A stretch of DNA of 64,000 bases from Shigella phage Sf23. The stretch lies in the sequence record MF158046; one strand, given 5' to 3'. Each line of letters begins with the position of its first letter. The first letter of the stretch is position 1. Positions 4,680 to 63,471 of this stretch are shown piece by piece. The notes under the pieces are model-generated. The model had not been told where the DNA came from. It saw nothing but the letters and a program-made list of their open reading frames with translations, and did not search any database. A program made the translations under genes and the position numbers.

Positions 4680-4965
4680 CTGTGATTTCGGTTACGATAT
4701 TTTTGTTATTAAAGTTTTTATCGCAATACAGAACATAATTATACTGCATTACACCACCAGACTTAAGTTGTTTTTGCACTTCAGCTTTCATTTTAGGACG
4801 ATCGCGCTCAACAATATTCATAATATCCGCTTCAATTTGAGTTTCAACTTCAGTCTGATCTGCAGTCATAGACCATTCACACAAGTCTTTATCATATCCT
4901 GCCATAGCAGGCTGAGCAGCACAAGAAGCCAAAGTAAAAATTGTAGCAAAAATAAATTTTTTCAT
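4672..4965 (-). CDS. sp: Spackle periplasmic protein (inhibitor of gp5 lysozyme, superinfection exclusion)
   Basis: 97 aa with signal peptide MKKFIFATIFTLASCAAQPAMA; size and position as T4 sp (61.3). Confidence 0.8.
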   Translation of the reverse strand: MKKFIFATIFTLASCAAQPAMAGYDKDLCEWSMTADQTEVETQIEADIMNIVERDRPKMKAEVQKQLKSGGVMQYNYVLYCDKNFNNKNIVTEITGE

Positions 4966-5025
4966 GATAATCTCCTCAGTAGTTTATGTTTATATAGTAT
5001 CTCAATTTCCAACAAAAGTAAACAG

Positions 5026-5325
5026 CTATTTTAAAACTTCTGCATAATCACATGTTACAAACTGTTTCTCTAGCTTAACGATCTTACGAAAGTATCTTTT
5101 GCATTGACGAATCTGCCGTTTCGTAGGACGTACAGCAAACTTAATAAATTCCACTCGACCAAATGGAGGGCTTTCTTCTGCCGGAATATCTAACACCAAT
5201 TCCCACGTATCCGCAATAAGTGCTTTGAATTGAGTATTTTTCCTGACGTTATACGGAGTAGGTTTAAATAAAACAATATGCATATTATCCTCGGCAATCC
5301 ACTTCGCACACTTTCTTGTCATCAA
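5026..5325 (-). CDS. hypothetical protein (61.4-like, 99 aa)
   Basis: ORF between sp and dmd; basic protein, no motif recognised. Confidence 0.5.
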   Translation of the reverse strand: MMTRKCAKWIAEDNMHIVLFKPTPYNVRKNTQFKALIADTWELVLDIPAEESPPFGRVEFIKFAVRPTKRQIRQCKRYFRKIVKLEKQFVTCDYAEVLK

Positions 5326-5467
5326 TGAAAGCTTTAACTAATGCTTTATTAACTTCAGCATATTGAGTAGTAGCCCATTGAACGTCATCTTTCATCATTG
5401 TGATTTCTTTAGTAAACATGCTTTCATTCTTAAACCACCCCATAAAAACTACCTTTACCAATTCCAT
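5285..5467 (-). CDS. dmd: Dmd, antitoxin against host RnlA/LsoA RNase toxins
   Basis: 60 aa, sequence matches recalled T4 Dmd (MELVKVVFMGWFKNESMFTKEI...); early promoter immediately upstream. Confidence 0.85.
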   Translation of the reverse strand: MELVKVVFMGWFKNESMFTKEITMMKDDVQWATTQYAEVNKALVKAFIDDKKVCEVDCRG

Positions 5468-43007: not shown

Positions 43008-43589
43008 CTAACCGAGCTTTTTAGTTAATTCGTTCCAGTGTTTTCTACACAAAGAAACATAAATTTCATCACCAATACAGATTTGATTACCTTCTTTAAC
43101 TGGTGTTCCATCTTCCATTAATCGAGCTGTCATAATCGCTTTTTTGCCGCAATGACAAACTGCCTTTAGTTCAATAAGTTTATCTGCAATCGCCAAAAGT
43201 TCTTTAGAACCTTCAAACAATTTTCCAGCGAAATCAGTCCTTAATCCATAAGCCATAACAGGAACATTATATGTATCAACAATTCGGCTTAATTGGTGCA
43301 CCTGTTCAGTTTTTAAAAACTGAGCTTCATCTACAAATACGCAATGAATATCTTTTTGTGCTTCAGCCCATTTATAGAACTCGAAAATATCCATATCATC
43401 TGTAATAATATTCGCTTCCTGTTTAATTCCAATGCGAGAAACAACTTCACAGACAGAATCGCGAGTATCAATAGCAGGCTTAAGAACTAATACACTCATT
43501 CCACGTTCTTTATAATTATGTGCAGCAGTCAAAAGAGAAGCAGATTTTCCAGCATTCATTGCTGCATAAGTAAAAATTAAACTCGCCAT
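43008..43589 (-). CDS. tk: thymidine kinase
   Basis: 193 aa as in T4 Tk; P-loop AAMNAGKS, zinc ribbon CHCG...C. Confidence 0.95.
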   Translation of the reverse strand: MASLIFTYAAMNAGKSASLLTAAHNYKERGMSVLVLKPAIDTRDSVCEVVSRIGIKQEANIITDDMDIFEFYKWAEAQKDIHCVFVDEAQFLKTEQVHQLSRIVDTYNVPVMAYGLRTDFAGKLFEGSKELLAIADKLIELKAVCHCGKKAIMTARLMEDGTPVKEGNQICIGDEIYVSLCRKHWNELTKKLG

Positions 43590-43598
43590 ATCACCTTC

Positions 43599-43784
43599 TT
43601 AAAGCGTATTCACATAAGCTATTAATTCATTTTCTTTCTTATCAAACCGATCAGCAAATTCTTCCTGCTGTTCGGGAGATAGCGGGCCGTATTCATCATA
43701 AAAGGTGTTTGCTTCTGTATGCTCATCTAGAAGTTCATGGATAAGCTCAAACAATTTATCTTTTTGTTCTTTACTCAGACTCAT
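43599..43784 (-). CDS. hypothetical acidic protein (tk.1 position, 61 aa)
   Basis: Small ORF upstream of tk. Confidence 0.45.
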   Translation of the reverse strand: MSLSKEQKDKLFELIHELLDEHTEANTFYDEYGPLSPEQQEEFADRFDKKENELIAYVNTL

Positions 43785-43955
43785 ATATTAATTTCCAGAA
43801 GTTTTAAAATAATTCGCTTTTGCTTAAATATTTCCATAGTTAAATGACCAGTATCTTTTTGACCGATTCCAATAGCAAAACCTTTATTAACAGCGAGTTC
43901 AATTAAATTATCAAGCTCACGTAACACTTCGTATTGTAACTCAAAACTATTCATT
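43781..43955 (-). CDS. small hypothetical protein (57 aa)
   Basis: Hand-translated ORF MNSFELQYEVLRELDNLIELAVNKGF...; stop overlaps tk.1 ATG (ATATGA). Confidence 0.35.
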
Positions 43956-44178
43956 TTGGTTTACCTTCTTTAACGAAATCTGGATAAGGATAAAATCCCG
44001 AATAAAATCCTTCACCTTTATGATTGATACATCCTTTATTAGAACAATAGCACCAATAATCGAAATCACAAGCCATTTCATCATTACATAAAGCAAAAAC
44101 AACCGGCCATTTACACTTTTCACAATGAGCATTTTTAAGAATACTAGTTTGGCTCATAACCATGTCACCTTTAAGCAA
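43951..44178 (-). CDS. Cys-rich small protein (75 aa), probable zinc binding
   Basis: Eleven Cys including CEKCKW, CNDEMACDFDYWCYCSNKGC. Confidence 0.45.
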   Translation of the reverse strand: MLKGDMVMSQTSILKNAHCEKCKWPVVFALCNDEMACDFDYWCYCSNKGCINHKGEGFYSGFYPYPDFVKEGKPK

Positions 44179-44366
44179 TATTCTTCTACGTGCTGTTTAC
44201 GACCTTTCTTATCAATAAAGGTATATTCAACGAATGTTCCAATGTAGTCTTTATCTACATCATGTGGACTATTAATTGGACATTTAGTACGGCAAATGCG
44301 TTCCCATTGACGAATAATTACTGCTTTGTTTTTAGGATCAAACGGATGCGGGTAATGTACTTTCAT
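44154..44366 (-). CDS. hypothetical protein (70 aa)
   Basis: ORF. Confidence 0.45.
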   Translation of the reverse strand: MKVHYPHPFDPKNKAVIIRQWERICRTKCPINSPHDVDKDYIGTFVEYTFIDKKGRKQHVEEYCLKVTWL

Positions 44367-44817
44367 AATCCACCACTATTAAATCAATATCAGGAGTAAA
44401 CATGTCGATTAATTTAGAAACCTTATCCCAATCACCGCCAGCAATACCACAACCTATGCGTGGAATGTAAATTACTGGTTTAAACAAAAGGGTTTCTGCC
44501 TGTAGATTTAATTCTATCATGCAGTTTACTAAAGCACCATAATCAAGATTAGGACCCGGTTCGTATTGCGTATACAGGTTATAGCATATACCAAATCCCG
44601 TAGGACTATGTTTAAAAACAATAGACATATCGCCTAATTTATCACGAGAACCGTACTCGGTAGTAGTTTTATCTATTTCTAAAATTTTGGGATAGGCTCT
44701 TGCTAATTGACCTGCTACGCCAGAGCCCATTGTATGAAAACAGTTGCACCCGTGTGCAATAATATTACCTTGAAGAAATAGGGCGACAATATCGCCCTTG
44801 ATATATTTTACAATCAT
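44338..44817 (-). CDS. macro domain protein (ADP-ribose binding/hydrolase fold)
   Basis: 159 aa; motif HGCNCFHTMGSGVAGQL and later GCGIAGG resemble macro-domain ADP-ribose pocket signatures. Confidence 0.6.
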   Translation of the reverse strand: MIVKYIKGDIVALFLQGNIIAHGCNCFHTMGSGVAGQLARAYPKILEIDKTTTEYGSRDKLGDMSIVFKHSPTGFGICYNLYTQYEPGPNLDYGALVNCMIELNLQAETLLFKPVIYIPRIGCGIAGGDWDKVSKLIDMFTPDIDLIVVDYESTLPASV

Positions 44818-45155
44818 CTAGTACTCAATCCTCGATTATAAGAATCTACCAAACGGTCAACCATTGAATGACAAGCGGCTTTATCTTTCTCCTCCGCAAC
44901 TGAACATTCTAAGGTATTCCACTTTTTAGCATATCGTTTTAACAATGTATCATTTTTATATCTGCTTGATTTATCTCTTTCTCCGTCTTTATATGCATAT
45001 ATTAATTTCTGCGCAAATTCAGCTTGGCATGCTTTATTTTTCCCACAATAATCCGCGGCAGTACGGTTTACATACTCTCTAATTTCAGTATATGATGTAT
45101 CTGCTAACGCAGAAAATGAAATTAATCCTATACATAAAACCAAAATTTTAGTCAT
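44814..45155 (-). CDS. secreted/periplasmic protein with signal peptide (113 aa)
   Basis: Signal peptide MTKILVLCIGLISFSALA; four Cys. Confidence 0.5.
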   Translation of the reverse strand: MTKILVLCIGLISFSALADTSYTEIREYVNRTAADYCGKNKACQAEFAQKLIYAYKDGERDKSSRYKNDTLLKRYAKKWNTLECSVAEEKDKAACHSMVDRLVDSYNRGLSTR

Positions 45156-45693
45156 TTACTATTTCCAAAAGTTTATTATTTTTAAGGTAATTAGCCTTTT
45201 CTAGGACTTCAGAAGCATATTTAGAACCTGCTTTAACATTCCATCCCGAATTATAAGAGGATATTGCTTTTCTTATATCGCCCTTATGTATATTTAACCA
45301 ATAAGAAAGTTCAATGTACGCCCAGGAAGCTGAATTGGACCGTTTATTCAACATTCTTTTTATTTCAGCATCGGTCATATTATAACCAAGTTCCTTAACT
45401 CTTGCTCGCATAGTAGGCAAATAATTTTGGAACATTCCGTAGGCGTGATGCTTTGGTTTAGATTTTAAATTAACTCCGCCAGAGCTTTCTTGCCATAAAA
45501 TAGCAGCCATTATATGACCTAATCCGCTCTTGTGGATATTTTTATGTGTTTTATATTTTCCATCCTTAGAAAATTGTTCCCCGAATTGATACGCGTAACG
45601 CATGTTATCGAGTTGGACATTACTGAAAGTATGCTCGGAGCTATGTGCCATCATAGAAATGGCCAATAGACCAGCGAGTAGTGCTTTTCTCAT
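45148..45693 (-). CDS. periplasmic lytic-transglycosylase-like protein (181 aa)
   Basis: Signal peptide MRKALLAGLLAISMMAHS; WQESSG and SYNSGW motifs resemble SLT-domain. Confidence 0.55.
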   Translation of the reverse strand: MRKALLAGLLAISMMAHSSEHTFSNVQLDNMRYAYQFGEQFSKDGKYKTHKNIHKSGLGHIMAAILWQESSGGVNLKSKPKHHAYGMFQNYLPTMRARVKELGYNMTDAEIKRMLNKRSNSASWAYIELSYWLNIHKGDIRKAISSYNSGWNVKAGSKYASEVLEKANYLKNNKLLEIVND

Positions 45694-45700
45694 GCTTACC

Positions 45701-46162
45701 TCATTGAGTTTTAATTACTGCTTTAGAAGCCTTTCCTGGTAAACGACGACTGTTGATAATTGCCATCCTGCACTGAAGTGACGGGTCTTTGAACTTCTCG
45801 TTAGGTTTACAAACTGTAAATCCAAGCCAAAGATTTCCATCTGTGATTTCTAAACGCCCAGGACGATATTCAACCCCATCAATAAAATCCTCATCAATAT
45901 CAGGGCGTGGAGGCATACTCAGGAATTCATTAACTTCTAAAACATGGTCTTTTATTTTATGGAATAATTCAAAAACATATGTCTCATCAATCTCCCGTTG
46001 AATTGCACGATCAAGAAGATGCTGAGAATATTTTAGATGAAACGATGAGACCCCTGCTGCTTTTGATGCCTCACGAATCTCATTGTTAATTTGACGAAAC
46101 TCCGACTCAAAGTGACGACGGAGCTTATTTCGACGGATAAAAACTTCTGTATTGATAGTCAT
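45701..46162 (-). CDS. regB: RegB site-specific endoribonuclease
   Basis: 153 aa as in T4; strong early promoter directly upstream. Confidence 0.88.
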   Translation of the reverse strand: MTINTEVFIRRNKLRRHFESEFRQINNEIREASKAAGVSSFHLKYSQHLLDRAIQREIDETYVFELFHKIKDHVLEVNEFLSMPPRPDIDEDFIDGVEYRPGRLEITDGNLWLGFTVCKPNEKFKDPSLQCRMAIINSRRLPGKASKAVIKTQ

Positions 46163-49318: not shown

Positions 49319-50287
<969 letters not shown>

Positions 50288-50306
<19 letters not shown>

Positions 50307-57372: not shown

Positions 57373-58112
<740 letters not shown>

Positions 58113-60848: not shown

Positions 60849-61439
60849 ATGCTCTTTACATTTTTTGATCCGATTGAATATGCGGCCAAAACGGTGAATA
60901 AAAACGCGCCGACTATTCCTATGACAGATATTTTTAGAAACTATAAAGACTATTTTAAACGCGCTCTTGCGGGATACCGCTTACGTACTTATTATATCAA
61001 AGGTTCACCACGCCCGGAAGAATTAGCAAATACTATATATGGAAATCCACAGTTGTATTGGGTTTTATTGATGTGTAATGATAATTATGATCCATATTAT
61101 GGATGGATTACTTCGCAAGAAGCTGCTTATCAAGCATCTATACAAAAATACAAAAACGTAGGTGGAGACCAAATAGTATATCATGTGAATGAAAACGGTG
61201 AAAAATTTTACAATTTAATATCATACGATGATAATCCATATGTTTGGTATGATAAAGGCGATAAAGCTAAAAAATATCCTCAATATGAAGGAGCGCTTGC
61301 TGCTGTTAATACGTATGAAGCTGCTGTTCTTGAAAATGAAAAACTTCGTCAAATAAAAATAATAGCAAAATCAGACATCAATTCATTTATGAACGACCTT
61401 ATACGTATAATGGAGAAATCTTATGGAAATGATAAGTAA
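60849..61439 (+). CDS. 53: gp53 baseplate wedge protein
   Basis: 196 aa as in T4 gp53; late promoter TATAAATA 28 nt upstream; overlaps gene 5 start. Confidence 0.8.
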   Translation: MLFTFFDPIEYAAKTVNKNAPTIPMTDIFRNYKDYFKRALAGYRLRTYYIKGSPRPEELANTIYGNPQLYWVLLMCNDNYDPYYGWITSQEAAYQASIQKYKNVGGDQIVYHVNENGEKFYNLISYDDNPYVWYDKGDKAKKYPQYEGALAAVNTYEAAVLENEKLRQIKIIAKSDINSFMNDLIRIMEKSYGNDK

Positions 61440-63471
61440 TAACCTCAATTGGTTTGTTGGTGTTGTTGAAGATAGAATGGACCCATTGAAATTAGGTCGT
61501 GTTCGTGTTCGTGTTGTTGGTCTGCATCCACCTCAAAGAGCACAAGGTGATGTAATGGGTATTCCAACTGAAAAATTACCATGGATGTCAGTTATTCAAC
61601 CTATAACTTCTGCAGCAATGTCTGGAATTGGAGGCTCCGTTACTGGACCGGTAGAAGGAACTAGAGTTTATGGTCATTTTTTAGACAAATGGAAAACCAA
61701 CGGAATTGTTCTTGGCACGTATGGTGGAATAGTTCGCGAAAAACCGAATAGACTTGAAGGATTTTCTGATCCAACTGGACAATATCCTAGACGTTTAGGA
61801 AATGATACTAACGTACTAAACCAAGGCGGAGAAGTAGGATATGATTCGTCTTCTAACGTTATCCAAGATAGTAACTTAGACACCGCAATAAATCCCGATG
61901 ATAGACCACTATCAGAGATTCCAACTGATGATAATCCAAATATGTCAATGGCTGAAATGCTTCGCCGTGATGAAGGATTAAGACTAAAAGTTTATTGGGA
62001 TACTGAAGGATATCCGACAATTGGTATTGGTCATCTTATCATGAAACAGCCAGTTCGTGATATGGCTCAAATTAATAAAGTTTTATCAAAACAAGTTGGT
62101 CGTGAAATTACTGGAAATCCAGGTTCTATTACAATGGAAGAAGCGGTAACTTTATTTGAACGTGATTTAGCTGATATGCAACGTGACATTAAATCACATT
62201 CTAAAGTAGGACCAGTCTGGCAAGCTGTCAACCGTTCTCGTCAAATGGCATTAGAAAATATGGCATTTCAGATGGGTGTTGGCGGTGTAGCTAAATTTAA
62301 CACAATGTTAACTGCTATGTTAGCAGGAGATTGGGAAAAAGCATATAAAGCTGGTCGTGATTCGTTGTGGTATCAACAAACAAAAGGCCGTGCATCCCGT
62401 GTTACCATGATTATTCTTACCGGAAATTTGGAATCATATGGTATTGAAGTTAAAACACCAGCTAGGTCTTTGTCGGCAATGGCTGCTACTGTGGCGAAGT
62501 CTTCTGATCCAGCTGACCCTCCTATTCCAAATGACTCAAGAATTTTATTCAAAGAACCAGTTTCTTCATATAAAGGCGAATATCCGTATGTTCACACAAT
62601 GGAAACTGAAAGCGGTCATATTCAGGAATTTGATGATACCCCTGGGCAAGAACGATATAGATTAGTTCATCCAACTGGAACTTATGAAGAAGTATCACCG
62701 TCAGGAAGAAGAACAAGAAAAACTGTCGATAATTTGTATGATATAACCAACGCTGATGGTAATTTTTTGGTAGCCGGCGATAAAAAGACTAACGTCGGTG
62801 GATCAGAAATTTATTACAACATGGATAATCGTCTTCACCAAATAGATGGAAGCAATACGATATTTGTGCGTGGAGATGAAACTAAGACAGATAAAGGCGA
62901 ATATCCGTATGTTCACACAATGGAAACTGAAAGCGGTCATATTCAGGAATTTGATGATACCCCTGGGCAAGAACGATATAGATTAGTTCATCCAACTGGA
63001 ACTTATGAAGAAGTATCACCGTCAGGAAGAAGAACAAGAAAAACTGTCGATAATTTGTATGATATAACCAACGCTGATGGTAATTTTTTGGTAGCCGGCG
63101 ATAAAAAGACTAACGTCGGTGGATCAGAAATTTATTACAACATGGATAATCGTCTTCACCAAATAGATGGAAGCAATACGATATTTGTGCGTGGAGATGA
63201 AACTAAGACAGTTGAAGGTAATGGAACTATCCTAGTTAAAGGTAATGTTACTATTGTAGTTGAAGGTAATGCTGACATTACAGTTAAAGGAGATGCTACC
63301 ACTTTAGTTGAAGGAAATCAAACTAATACAGTAAATGGAAATCTTTCTTGGAAAGTTGCTGGGACAGTTGATTGGGACGTTGGTGGTGATTGGACAGAAA
63401 AAATGGCATCTATGAGTTCTATTTCATCTGGTCAATACACAATTGATGGATCGAGGATTGACATTGGCTAA
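61423..63471 (+). CDS. 5: gp5 baseplate hub/tail lysozyme with internal 107-aa tandem duplication
   Basis: 682 aa vs 575 aa in T4; OB domain, lysozyme domain similar to gpe (EGLRLKVYWDTEGYPTIGIGHL), C-terminal VxGxxxxx beta-helix repeats; exact 321-bp tandem repeat accounts for the extra length. Confidence 0.9.
   Translation: MEMISNNLNWFVGVVEDRMDPLKLGRVRVRVVGLHPPQRAQGDVMGIPTEKLPWMSVIQPITSAAMSGIGGSVTGPVEGTRVYGHFLDKWKTNGIVLGTYGGIVREKPNRLEGFSDPTGQYPRRLGNDTNVLNQGGEVGYDSSSNVIQDSNLDTAINPDDRPLSEIPTDDNPNMSMAEMLRRDEGLRLKVYWDTEGYPTIGIGHLIMKQPVRDMAQINKVLSKQVGREITGNPGSITMEEAVTLFERDLADMQRDIKSHSKVGPVWQAVNRSRQMALENMAFQMGVGGVAKFNTMLTAMLAGDWEKAYKAGRDSLWYQQTKGRASRVTMIILTGNLESYGIEVKTPARSLSAMAATVAKSSDPADPPIPNDSRILFKEPVSSYKGEYPYVHTMETESGHIQEFDDTPGQERYRLVHPTGTYEEVSPSGRRTRKTVDNLYDITNADGNFLVAGDKKTNVGGSEIYYNMDNRLHQIDGSNTIFVRGDETKTDKGEYPYVHTMETESGHIQEFDDTPGQERYRLVHPTGTYEEVSPSGRRTRKTVDNLYDITNADGNFLVAGDKKTNVGGSEIYYNMDNRLHQIDGSNTIFVRGDETKTVEGNGTILVKGNVTIVVEGNADITVKGDATTLVEGNQTNTVNGNLSWKVAGTVDWDVGGDWTEKMASMSSISSGQYTIDGSRIDIG
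62570..63211 (+). repeat. perfect tandem direct duplication, 2 x 321 bp, inside gene 5
   Basis: 62570..62890 is base-for-base identical to 62891..63211; in frame (107 codons); junction encodes ...RGDETKT-DKGEYPYV... Confidence 0.95.

What the first reader, a model, noticed from the sequence alone, without database searches (positions are those of the whole stretch)
44338..44817. Phage-encoded macro domain protein
The 159-aa ORF carries macro-domain-like ADP-ribose pocket motifs (NCFHTMGSGVAGQ, GCGIAGG). T-even phages ADP-ribosylate host proteins (Alt, ModA, ModB), and hosts use ADP-ribosylation (for example DarT) or ADP-ribose-derived signals (Thoeris) in defence, so a phage macro domain could reverse modifications or degrade signals.
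Basis: partly seen in the sequence, partly recalled or inferred. Interest (0 to 1): 0.5.

Follow-up and report, generated by a model that had tools for sequence, protein, structure and literature searches.

The report
T4-type phage macrodomain (Tk.4/AdfM)
This is a real macrodomain gene in a T4-like coliphage, the counterpart of T4 tk.4 (adfM), which was recently shown to protect T4 from the bacterial DNA-ADP-ribosylating defence DarTG2; the call is correct but the gene is already known.

Summary

The window is a Tequatrovirus. The ORF sits between tk.3 and vs, the position of T4 tk.4. A 2025 preprint (HIDEN-SEQ) showed that a tk.4 knock-out makes T4 sensitive to DarTG2 and renamed the gene adfM. 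Nothing supports the Thoeris idea.

Three details go beyond that:
- **Catalytic type.** The family has an invariant Gln (Q84, 254 of 254 homologues) where DarG and TARG1 have their catalytic Lys. That matches SCO6735, a Gln-type enzyme shown to cleave thymidine-linked ADP-ribose from DNA.
- **Two lineages, one name.** PhiKZ "AdfM" is a separate, Lys-type, DarG-like lineage.
- **Divergent allele.** This protein is only 58% identical to T4 Tk.4, while flanking genes are 96-100% identical. It looks like a swapped cassette.

Novelty is low: the gene is annotated in hundreds of phage genomes.

The parts
44338..44817 (-). Macrodomain gene. It is the positional orthologue of T4 tk.4 / adfM and encodes 159 aa.
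44713..44754 (-). Residues 22-35, HGCNCFHTMGSGVA: the conserved His/Asn and the first ADP-ribose-binding (Gly-rich) loop.
   Evidence: H22 is kept in 248 of 254 homologues, N25 in 253, G33 in 254 and A35 in 252. In the profile alignment H22 aligns with SCO6735 H24 and N25 with SCO6735 N27. N25 also aligns with the conserved DarG Asn and with PhiKZ AdfM N23.
44566..44580 (-). Residues 80-84, NLYTQ: a strand-end motif with Gln84 at the position of the catalytic Lys of DarG (K80) and TARG1 (K84), and of SCO6735 Gln85.
   Evidence: Profile alignments agree on this position. Q84 and Y82 are kept in 254 of 254 homologues and N80 in 253. SCO6735 Q85A is inactive on thymidine-ADPr DNA (PMC9411070).
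44428..44463 (-). Residues 119-130, PRIGCGIAGGDW: the second (diphosphate-binding) loop. Ala126 sits where TARG1 has catalytic Asp125, and G124 aligns with SCO6735 G128.
   Evidence: Read from the sequence. Alignments. P119, G122 and G124 are each kept in 252 of 254 homologues and W130 in 248.
44814..44817 (-). ATGA overlap between the stop codon of vs and the start codon of the macrodomain gene. This suggests translational coupling within one co-directional gene block running from regB to tk.
   Evidence: Read from the sequence. T4 has the same arrangement.
44340..44780 (.). Divergent allelic cassette. This is the only stretch of the tk.3-regB region that differs strongly from T4.
   Evidence: In 60-nt windows, identity to T4 is 38-78% inside this stretch (85% in the window overlapping its right edge) and 88-100% in the windows beyond it, mostly 97-100%. 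Flanking proteins are 96-100% identical, against 58% for this one.

Best explanation
The ORF is the tk.4/adfM gene of a T4-like coliphage: a stand-alone macrodomain of the ALC1/TARG1/DarG structural class. It most likely acts as an orphan 'antitoxin'.

Proposed sequence of events:
1. The host toxin DarT2 attaches ADP-ribose to thymidine in single-stranded phage DNA, which blocks replication.
2. The phage macrodomain binds the ADP-ribose through its two Gly-rich loops.
3. It hydrolyses the ribose-thymine bond, so replication can proceed.

Catalysis probably follows the SCO6735 route: a Gln (Q84 here) positions the distal ribose and a water molecule. It probably does not follow the Lys route of DarG or TARG1, because the family has an invariant Gln at that position and Ala at the position of TARG1 Asp125.

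**Shown:** the macro fold, the class, the residue equivalences, the positional orthology, and (for T4 only, from the literature) the anti-DarTG2 phenotype.
**Inferred:** that this 58%-identical allele has the same phenotype, that the action is enzymatic, and that it uses the Gln mechanism.
For: **Fold and class**
- Pfam Macro; confident model.
- Profile-profile matches: SCO6735+BT1257 at 99.2% probability, E 3.5e-19; DarG set at 98.8%, E 9e-17; TARG1 at 98.6%.
- The DarG model is the only PADLOC hit and the best of two weak NCBIfam hits.

**Orthology**
- Gene order matches T4: tk, small ORFs, tk.3, macrodomain, vs, vs.1, regB. Identity to T4 Tk.4 is 58%.

**Function of the T4 gene**
- tk.4 was the single significant hit in a DarTG2 screen, and a clean knock-out was sensitised (10.1101/2025.11.20.689424).
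- T2 and T4 are DarTG2-resistant independently of AdfN (PMC11825919).

**Gln mechanism**
- Q84 aligns to DarG K80, TARG1 K84 and SCO6735 Q85 and is kept in 254 of 254 homologues.
- SCO6735 cleaves thymidine-ADPr DNA and protects against DarT, and its Q85A mutant is dead (PMC9411070; PMC9967889).

**Precedent**
- An unrelated phage macrodomain, PhiKZ gp104, removes DarT2 marks from DNA in vitro (PMC13309987).
Against: - No biochemical data exist for any T4-type Tk.4 protein. The preprint only calls enzymatic removal 'likely'.
- This allele is 58% identical to the tested one and was acquired as a separate cassette, so its specificity could differ.
- The two DNA-contacting lysines of SCO6735 (K34, K89) and its longer mobile loop are not conserved here. 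S32 aligns with K34, and the loop is about 6 residues shorter.
- The family-specific invariants D49 and Y82 have no counterpart in SCO6735 or DarG, so the chemistry may differ.
- Scores to the DarG models are far below membership level: 27.7 bits against a cut-off of 250.
- By sequence, the best PDB hits include yeast Poa1p, an ADP-ribose-1''-phosphate phosphatase.
Confidence: 0.65

Rival explanations
1. The protein neutralises DarT2 without catalysis, by binding the toxin or its ADP-ribosylated DNA product (inhibition by interaction or sequestration).
For: Catalytically dead SCO6735 Q85A, DarG K80A and TARG1 K84A all still inhibit DarT activity in vitro, and SCO6735 does so most strongly (PMC9411070). 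DarG K80 mutants retain part of their antitoxin effect (PMC9967889). No catalytic mutant of T4 Tk.4 has been tested.
Against: The protein is a bare 159-aa macrodomain. No family member examined carries the C-terminal DarT-binding domain of DarG, and longer homologues match only the macro half of the DarG model. Strict conservation of active-site-type residues (H22, N25, Q84, both Gly loops) in 248-254 of 254 sequences is what a working enzyme would show.
Confidence: 0.1
2. Its main substrate is a small ADP-ribose derivative (ADP-ribose-1''-phosphate, O-acetyl-ADP-ribose, or a toxic or signalling ADPr metabolite) rather than modified DNA. This is the historical 'A1pp phosphatase' annotation.
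Against: The only phenotype on record for the T4 orthologue is DarTG2-specific. T29 is poorly conserved in the family (138 of 254). No Tpt1/KptA-type source of ADPr-1''-phosphate was noticed in the window. The two activities are not mutually exclusive.
Confidence: 0.15
3. It reverses or tunes the phage's own ADP-ribosylation of host proteins (Alt, ModA, ModB), or ModB-type RNAylation.
For: T-even phages encode three ADP-ribosyltransferases (established knowledge, also stated in PMC9503650). A transferase-eraser pair would be logical.
Against: Alt and Mod enzymes modify arginine, a linkage that macrodomains are not known to cleave (general knowledge, not tested here). The gene is not next to any ADP-ribosyltransferase gene in the window, and the 682-aa ORF at 61423 is gp5, not Alt. 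tk.4 is dispensable on plain K-12 and matters only with DarTG2.
Confidence: 0.05
4. It degrades Thoeris (gcADPR or His-ADPR) or other ADPr-derived immune signals.
Against: No direct evidence was found. The closest relatives are all glycohydrolases acting on macromolecule-linked ADPr, or Poa1p, not signal-binding domains. The papers read here do not mention a Thoeris phenotype for tk.4.
Confidence: 0.03

Closest known systems
T4 Tk.4 = AdfM (anti-DarT factor Macrodomain), bioRxiv 10.1101/2025.11.20.689424
   Same: Same genomic slot between tk.3 and vs, with the same ATGA coupling to vs. Similar length (159 vs 155 aa). Identity is 58% with no gaps. Every family-invariant residue is shared, including NLYTQ and the HGCNC motif.
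   Different: The allele is strongly divergent: 38-78% nt identity within otherwise 97-100% identical DNA. It has four extra C-terminal residues. It has never been tested against DarTG2.
Streptomyces coelicolor SCO6735 (PDB 5E3B) and Bacteroides BT1257 (2AFC/2FG1): Gln-type ALC1-like macrodomains
   Different: Only about 25-29% identical. The 5-6-residue longer mobile loop with K89 is missing, as is K34. It has its own invariants, D49 and Y82. It is phage-borne rather than chromosomal.
DarG antitoxin macrodomain (T. aquaticus 5M31, M. tuberculosis 5M3I) of DarTG2
   Different: The catalytic Lys80 is replaced by Gln. The FPTKxxWR motif, including W83, is absent. There is no C-terminal DarT-binding domain and no adjacent DarT. 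The score is 27.7 bits against the equivalog cut-off of 250.
PhiKZ gp104, also named 'AdfM' (Cell Rep 2026, PMC13309987)
   Same: A phage-encoded stand-alone macrodomain of similar size that counters DarTG2. For gp104 this was shown biochemically.
   Different: It belongs to a different lineage. gp104 is a true DarG-like Lys-type protein: 133 bits to the PADLOC DarG model against 27.5 here, and E 1e-24 to M. tuberculosis DarG. BLASTP between the two proteins aligns significantly only over 23 residues, at E 0.001.
Human TARG1/OARD1 (4J5S) and yeast Poa1p (6LFR)
   Different: TARG1 K84 and D125 are Q84 and A126 here. Poa1p is a phosphatase of a small molecule, and only its N-terminal half aligns well.

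Membership tests
Macro domain superfamily (Pfam PF01661) | Sequence match above the Pfam gathering score | tested here: met
   32 bits against a cut-off of 22, E 1.3e-7, profile positions 2-117 of 118.
Macro domain superfamily (Pfam PF01661) | Three-layer alpha/beta/alpha macro fold with two Gly-rich ADP-ribose-binding loops | tested here: met
Macro domain superfamily (Pfam PF01661) | Binds ADP-ribose | not testable with these tools
   Needs ITC, a thermal-shift assay or a co-crystal structure.
ALC1/TARG1/DarG-like macrodomain class | Closest structural neighbours are members of this class rather than MacroD or PARG types | tested here: met
TARG1/DarG (Lys-type) hydrolases | Catalytic lysine (TARG1 K84, DarG K80); for TARG1 also Asp125 | tested here: not met
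   The equivalent positions are Q84 and A126. Gln is present in 254 of 254 family members.
DarG antitoxin (NCBIfam NF048014 equivalog; PADLOC DarG) | Full-length two-domain protein (macro domain plus C-terminal DarT-binding domain) scoring above the equivalog cut-off | tested here: not met
   27.7 bits against a cut-off of 250. Only profile positions 2-142 of 338 are matched, and the protein is 159 aa.
DarG antitoxin (NCBIfam NF048014 equivalog; PADLOC DarG) | Encoded next to a DarT toxin gene | tested here: not met
   The neighbours are tk.3 (DUF7202) and vs; there is no ADP-ribosyltransferase among them.
SCO6735/BT1257-type (Gln-type) DNA ADP-ribosylglycohydrolases | Gln at the catalytic position, together with the conserved His, Asn and Gly of the phosphate loop (SCO6735 H24, N27, Q85, G128) | tested here: met
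   H22, N25, Q84 and G124 align to these residues in the profile-profile alignment. SCO6735 numbering was checked against the mutants named in PMC9411070.
SCO6735/BT1257-type (Gln-type) DNA ADP-ribosylglycohydrolases | Extended mobile loop after the Gln, with DNA-contacting lysines (K89, and K34 in loop 1) | tested here: not met
   A six-residue gap lies opposite the SCO6735/BT1257 loop. S32 stands in place of K34.
SCO6735/BT1257-type (Gln-type) DNA ADP-ribosylglycohydrolases | Hydrolyses thymidine-linked ADP-ribose on ssDNA | not testable with these tools
   Needs a DarT2-modified oligonucleotide assay.
T4 Tk.4 / AdfM (T4-type) | Same locus and clear sequence orthology to T4 tk.4 | tested here: met
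   The gene lies between tk.3 and vs as in T4. Identity is 58% over 155 aa, E 1e-70.
T4 Tk.4 / AdfM (T4-type) | Required for phage growth on DarTG2-carrying hosts | not testable with these tools
   Shown only for T4 itself.
PhiKZ-type AdfM (gp104) | Close DarG-like sequence with the FPTK(D/K)xW motif | tested here: not met
   BLASTP gives significant similarity only over 23 residues, at E 0.001. The motif is absent, whereas gp104 scores 133 bits to the DarG model.

The most novel reading that the evidence does not exclude
T-even phages keep several deeply diverged tk.4/adfM alleles (window-type, T4-type and at least one intermediate class) and exchange them as precise gene-sized cassettes. This could reflect an arms race in which the alleles differ in specificity. 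They might target different DarT2 variants or other base-linked ADP-ribose marks, or they might evade a host factor that recognises or inhibits the macrodomain. The Gln-type T4 family and the Lys-type PhiKZ family would then be two independent phage acquisitions of anti-DarT2 macrodomains with different chemistry.
Probability: 0.25. Interest if true: 0.45.

Novelty: already known. Interest (0 to 1): 0.2.

Why it matters
The gene belongs to the counter-defence set of T-even phages, and this window also carries Acb1 (anti-CBASS). Knowing that most sequenced Tequatroviruses carry one or another allele of an anti-DarTG2 macrodomain helps predict phage host range on DarTG2-carrying E. coli, which include pathogenic strains.

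Two modest additions come from this work. The T4-type family looks like a Gln-type (SCO6735-like) enzyme rather than a DarG-like Lys enzyme. The locus is also a hot spot of allele exchange. Both points are cheap to test and would refine how 'AdfM' proteins are classified.

Tried and rejected
- **Is the 682-aa ORF at 61423-63471 Alt?** No. It is gp5, the baseplate hub with lysozyme domain, so no ADP-ribosyltransferase gene was noticed in this window.
- **NADAR partner (AdfN).** The literature places it at T4 gene 30.3. I did not search the window for it.
- **Hairpin at 44780-44798.** I tested whether it is a significant RNA structure. The fold z-score is -1.43 and 19 of 200 shuffles fold as well, so it is not significant.
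- **Longer homologues (204-350 aa).** None has a DarG-like second domain; all match only the macro half of the DarG model.
- **A bacterial homologue (Pelagimonas).** It does not sit next to DarT or in a prophage. It is a stand-alone gene among housekeeping genes.
- **Direct phmmer alignments around the catalytic position.** A single-sequence alignment to BT1257 mis-registered the NLYTQ motif. Profile-based alignments resolved it consistently.
- **Poa1p literature.** A search found no open-access structural paper, so the Poa1p comparison rests on PDB titles and alignments only.
- **Promoter and terminator scan.** It gave no more sites than shuffled sequence.

Full report
**Observation**

The ORF exists exactly as described. 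It runs 44338..44817 on the minus strand, starts with ATG and encodes 159 aa. NCFHTMGSGVAGQ is residues 25-37 and GCGIAGG is residues 122-128.

The protein passes Pfam's Macro model at 32 bits (cut-off 22, E 1.3e-7) over nearly the whole profile. By plain phmmer it finds solved macrodomains:

| Solved structure | E-value |
|---|---|
| Bacteroides BT1257 | 4e-10 |
| Yeast Poa1p | 2e-9 |
| Streptomyces SCO6735 | 9e-8 |
| M. tuberculosis DarG | 5e-5 |
| Human TARG1 | 0.01 |

**Context**

The window is a Tequatrovirus. The 3.2 kb around the ORF is 100% identical to Escherichia phage ECML-363 and about 98% identical to hundreds of T4-like phages.

All genes here are on the minus strand and tightly packed:
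- regB (45701-46162)
- vs.1, an SLT-domain protein (45148-45693)
- vs (44814-45155)
- the macrodomain gene
- a DUF7202 gene that is 96% identical to T4 tk.3 (44154-44366)
- three small ORFs
- tk (43008-43589)

In T4 the gene between tk.3 and vs is tk.4, which is 155 aa and annotated 'phosphatase; contains A1pp phosphatase motif'. The vs stop codon and the macrodomain start codon overlap as ATGA, as in T4. The window protein is 58% identical to T4 Tk.4 with no gaps.

**What is known about the T4 gene**

A transposon-sequencing study of T4 (HIDEN-SEQ, bioRxiv 10.1101/2025.11.20.689424) found tk.4 as the single significant hit when the library was grown on E. coli expressing DarTG2. A clean knock-out became sensitive to DarTG2. 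The authors renamed the gene adfM (anti-DarT factor Macrodomain). They considered enzymatic removal of ADP-ribose from DNA 'likely', but tested no enzyme or catalytic mutant.

Earlier work had shown that T2 and T4 resist DarTG2 independently of the NADAR protein AdfN (PMC11825919). Separately, the PhiKZ macrodomain gp104, also called AdfM, was shown biochemically to remove DarT2-installed ADP-ribose from DNA and to rescue DarT2 toxicity (PMC13309987).

Phage macrodomains are common. One survey found them in 41% of myoviruses (PMC9503650). Here, tblastn finds relatives in 2788 of 50,697 phage records. phmmer finds 6116 cluster representatives at E<=1e-3 among 1.84 billion proteins.

**Mechanism**

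I aligned a 56-sequence family profile to three references. All alignments agree on the key positions.

| Reference | Probability | E-value |
|---|---|---|
| DarG set (Thermus, Mycobacterium, Thermosipho, PhiKZ gp104) | 98.8% | 9e-17 |
| TARG1 | 98.6% | 1e-15 |
| SCO6735 + BT1257 | 99.2% | 3.5e-19 |

The family motif N80-L-Y-T-Q84 lies on DarG N-F-P-T-K80, on TARG1 Y-L-I-T-K84 and on SCO6735 N-M-I-G-Q85. A HMMER profile search places it the same way. A126 lies on TARG1 Asp125.

The catalytic Lys of DarG and TARG1, and the catalytic Asp of TARG1, are therefore absent. Gln occupies the Lys position. In 254 family members down to about 38% identity, the conservation is as follows:

| Residue | Kept in (of 254) |
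|---|---|
| Q84 | 254 |
| Y82 | 254 |
| D49 | 254 |
| N25 | 253 |
| H22 | 248 |

SCO6735 provides the precedent. It has Gln85 at this position, cleaves thymidine-linked ADP-ribose from DNA, protects against DarT, and is inactivated by Q85A. The proposed mechanism uses Gln to hold the distal ribose, with a water molecule positioned by the backbone of residue 25 (PMC9411070; PMC9967889). H22, N25 and G124 of the window protein align with SCO6735 H24, N27 and G128. I checked the SCO6735 numbering against the mutants named in that paper. The PRIGCG(I/L)AGGxW loop is nearly identical.

There are differences from SCO6735. Its longer mobile loop with K89, and its K34, are not present. D49 and Y82 are invariants peculiar to the phage-type family.

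My best reading is a Gln-type DNA ADP-ribosylglycohydrolase that acts as an orphan antitoxin to DarT2. The fold, the residue equivalences and the orthology are shown here. The substrate and the chemistry are inferred.

**Family membership**

The protein is not a DarG:
- It scores 27.7 bits against the NCBIfam equivalog cut-off of 250, and only the macro half of the model matches.
- It has no C-terminal DarT-binding domain.
- It has no adjacent DarT.
- It has no catalytic Lys.

It is also not in the same lineage as PhiKZ AdfM. gp104 scores 133 bits to the PADLOC DarG model, against 27.5 for the window protein and 36 for T4 Tk.4. gp104 hits M. tuberculosis DarG at E 1e-24. BLASTP between gp104 and the window protein aligns significantly only over 23 residues. 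The name AdfM thus covers two independent macrodomain lineages with different catalytic residues.

Longer homologues of the window protein carry no DarG-like second domain. A bacterial homologue in Pelagimonas is a stand-alone chromosomal gene with no DarT beside it, like SCO6735.

**Allelic cassette**

Compared with T4, the neighbouring proteins are nearly identical: tk 99.5%, tk.3 95.7%, vs 97.4%, vs.1 100% and regB 100%. The macrodomain is 58%.

In 60-nt windows, DNA identity to T4 is mostly 97-100% on both sides. It falls to 38-78% only between about 44340 and 44780. The first dozen codons of the ORF are still T4-like.

Both alleles are common. The window type is at least 90% identical in about 311 phage records. 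The T4 type is at least 90% identical in about 224 records and 80-90% identical in another 159. Intermediate classes of 73-82% identity also exist.

This pattern points to gene-sized recombinational exchange of old alleles, which fits a gene under conflict-driven selection. It also means the DarTG2 phenotype measured for the T4 allele cannot simply be assumed for this one.

**Rival explanations**

- **Non-catalytic DarT2 inhibition** is possible, because dead SCO6735, DarG and TARG1 still inhibit DarT in vitro. The strict conservation of active-site residues argues for catalysis.
- **A small-molecule role** (ADPr-1''-phosphate or O-acetyl-ADPr) is the historical annotation. It is consistent with the Poa1p similarity and could coexist with the DNA role. 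It does not explain the DarTG2-specific phenotype.
- **Reversal of Alt/ModA/ModB marks** and **degradation of Thoeris signals** have no support in anything examined.

**Verdict**

The gene is already known and widely annotated. The residual points of interest are the Gln-type active site, the two-lineage use of the name 'AdfM', and the allelic cassette. Interest is 0.2.

Noticed in passing
window 44340-44780 against T4 (L001 about 4926-5355): The macrodomain gene is a sharply bounded divergent cassette. Its nt identity to T4 is 38-78%, inside DNA that is otherwise 97-100% identical. Several discrete allele classes circulate among Tequatroviruses.
   Followed up: partly
window 43599-44178: The tk.1/tk.2 interval also differs from T4. 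The 61-aa ORF matches T4 tk.2 at only 54%. The 57-aa ORF has no T4 match in this interval. An extra 75-aa 'Phage zinc binding domain' gene (PF23895, 43951-44178) is absent from the T4 tk-tk.4 interval.
   Followed up: partly
window 44780-44798 (- strand): An 8-bp GC-rich hairpin (AGGGCGAU AUU GUCGCCCU) lies in codons 7-13 of the macrodomain ORF, at the right edge of the divergent cassette and within the stretch shared with T4. Its folding energy is not significant (z -1.43).
   Followed up: yes
window 44338-44366: The 3' end of the macrodomain ORF overlaps the start of the tk.3-like gene by 29 nt. In T4 the overlap is 4 nt. The window protein has four extra C-terminal residues, which are modelled with low confidence (pLDDT<50 for residues 156-159).
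   Followed up: no
window 49851-50306 (-): A Nudix hydrolase gene (Pfam NUDIX, 49 bits) sits next to the lysozyme gene, in the position of T4 e.1. It could dispose of the free ADP-ribose released by the macrodomain.
   Followed up: no
window 57416-57871 (-): An Acb1 anti-CBASS gene (Pfam PF23474, 203 bits). This is a second counter-defence gene in the same window.
   Followed up: no
literature: PMC13309987 versus bioRxiv 10.1101/2025.11.20.689424: The name AdfM has been given independently to two unrelated macrodomain lineages. PhiKZ gp104 is Lys-type and DarG-like. T4 Tk.4 is Gln-type and SCO6735-like.
   Followed up: yes
family alignment, residues D49 and Y82 (window 44671-44673 and 44572-44574): Two residues are invariant in all 254 homologues but have no counterpart in the SCO6735, DarG or TARG1 alignments. 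Their role is unknown.
   Followed up: no
hit H75 (Microbacterium phage record with a masked name): A distant macrodomain match (30% identity) lies under a CDS annotated as ADP-ribosyltransferase. This may be a transferase-macrodomain fusion or an adjacent pair.
   Followed up: no
L002 6001-6459 (Pelagimonas phthalicica chromosome): A 40%-identical bacterial homologue is a stand-alone gene among housekeeping genes, with no DarT or prophage genes nearby.
   Followed up: partly
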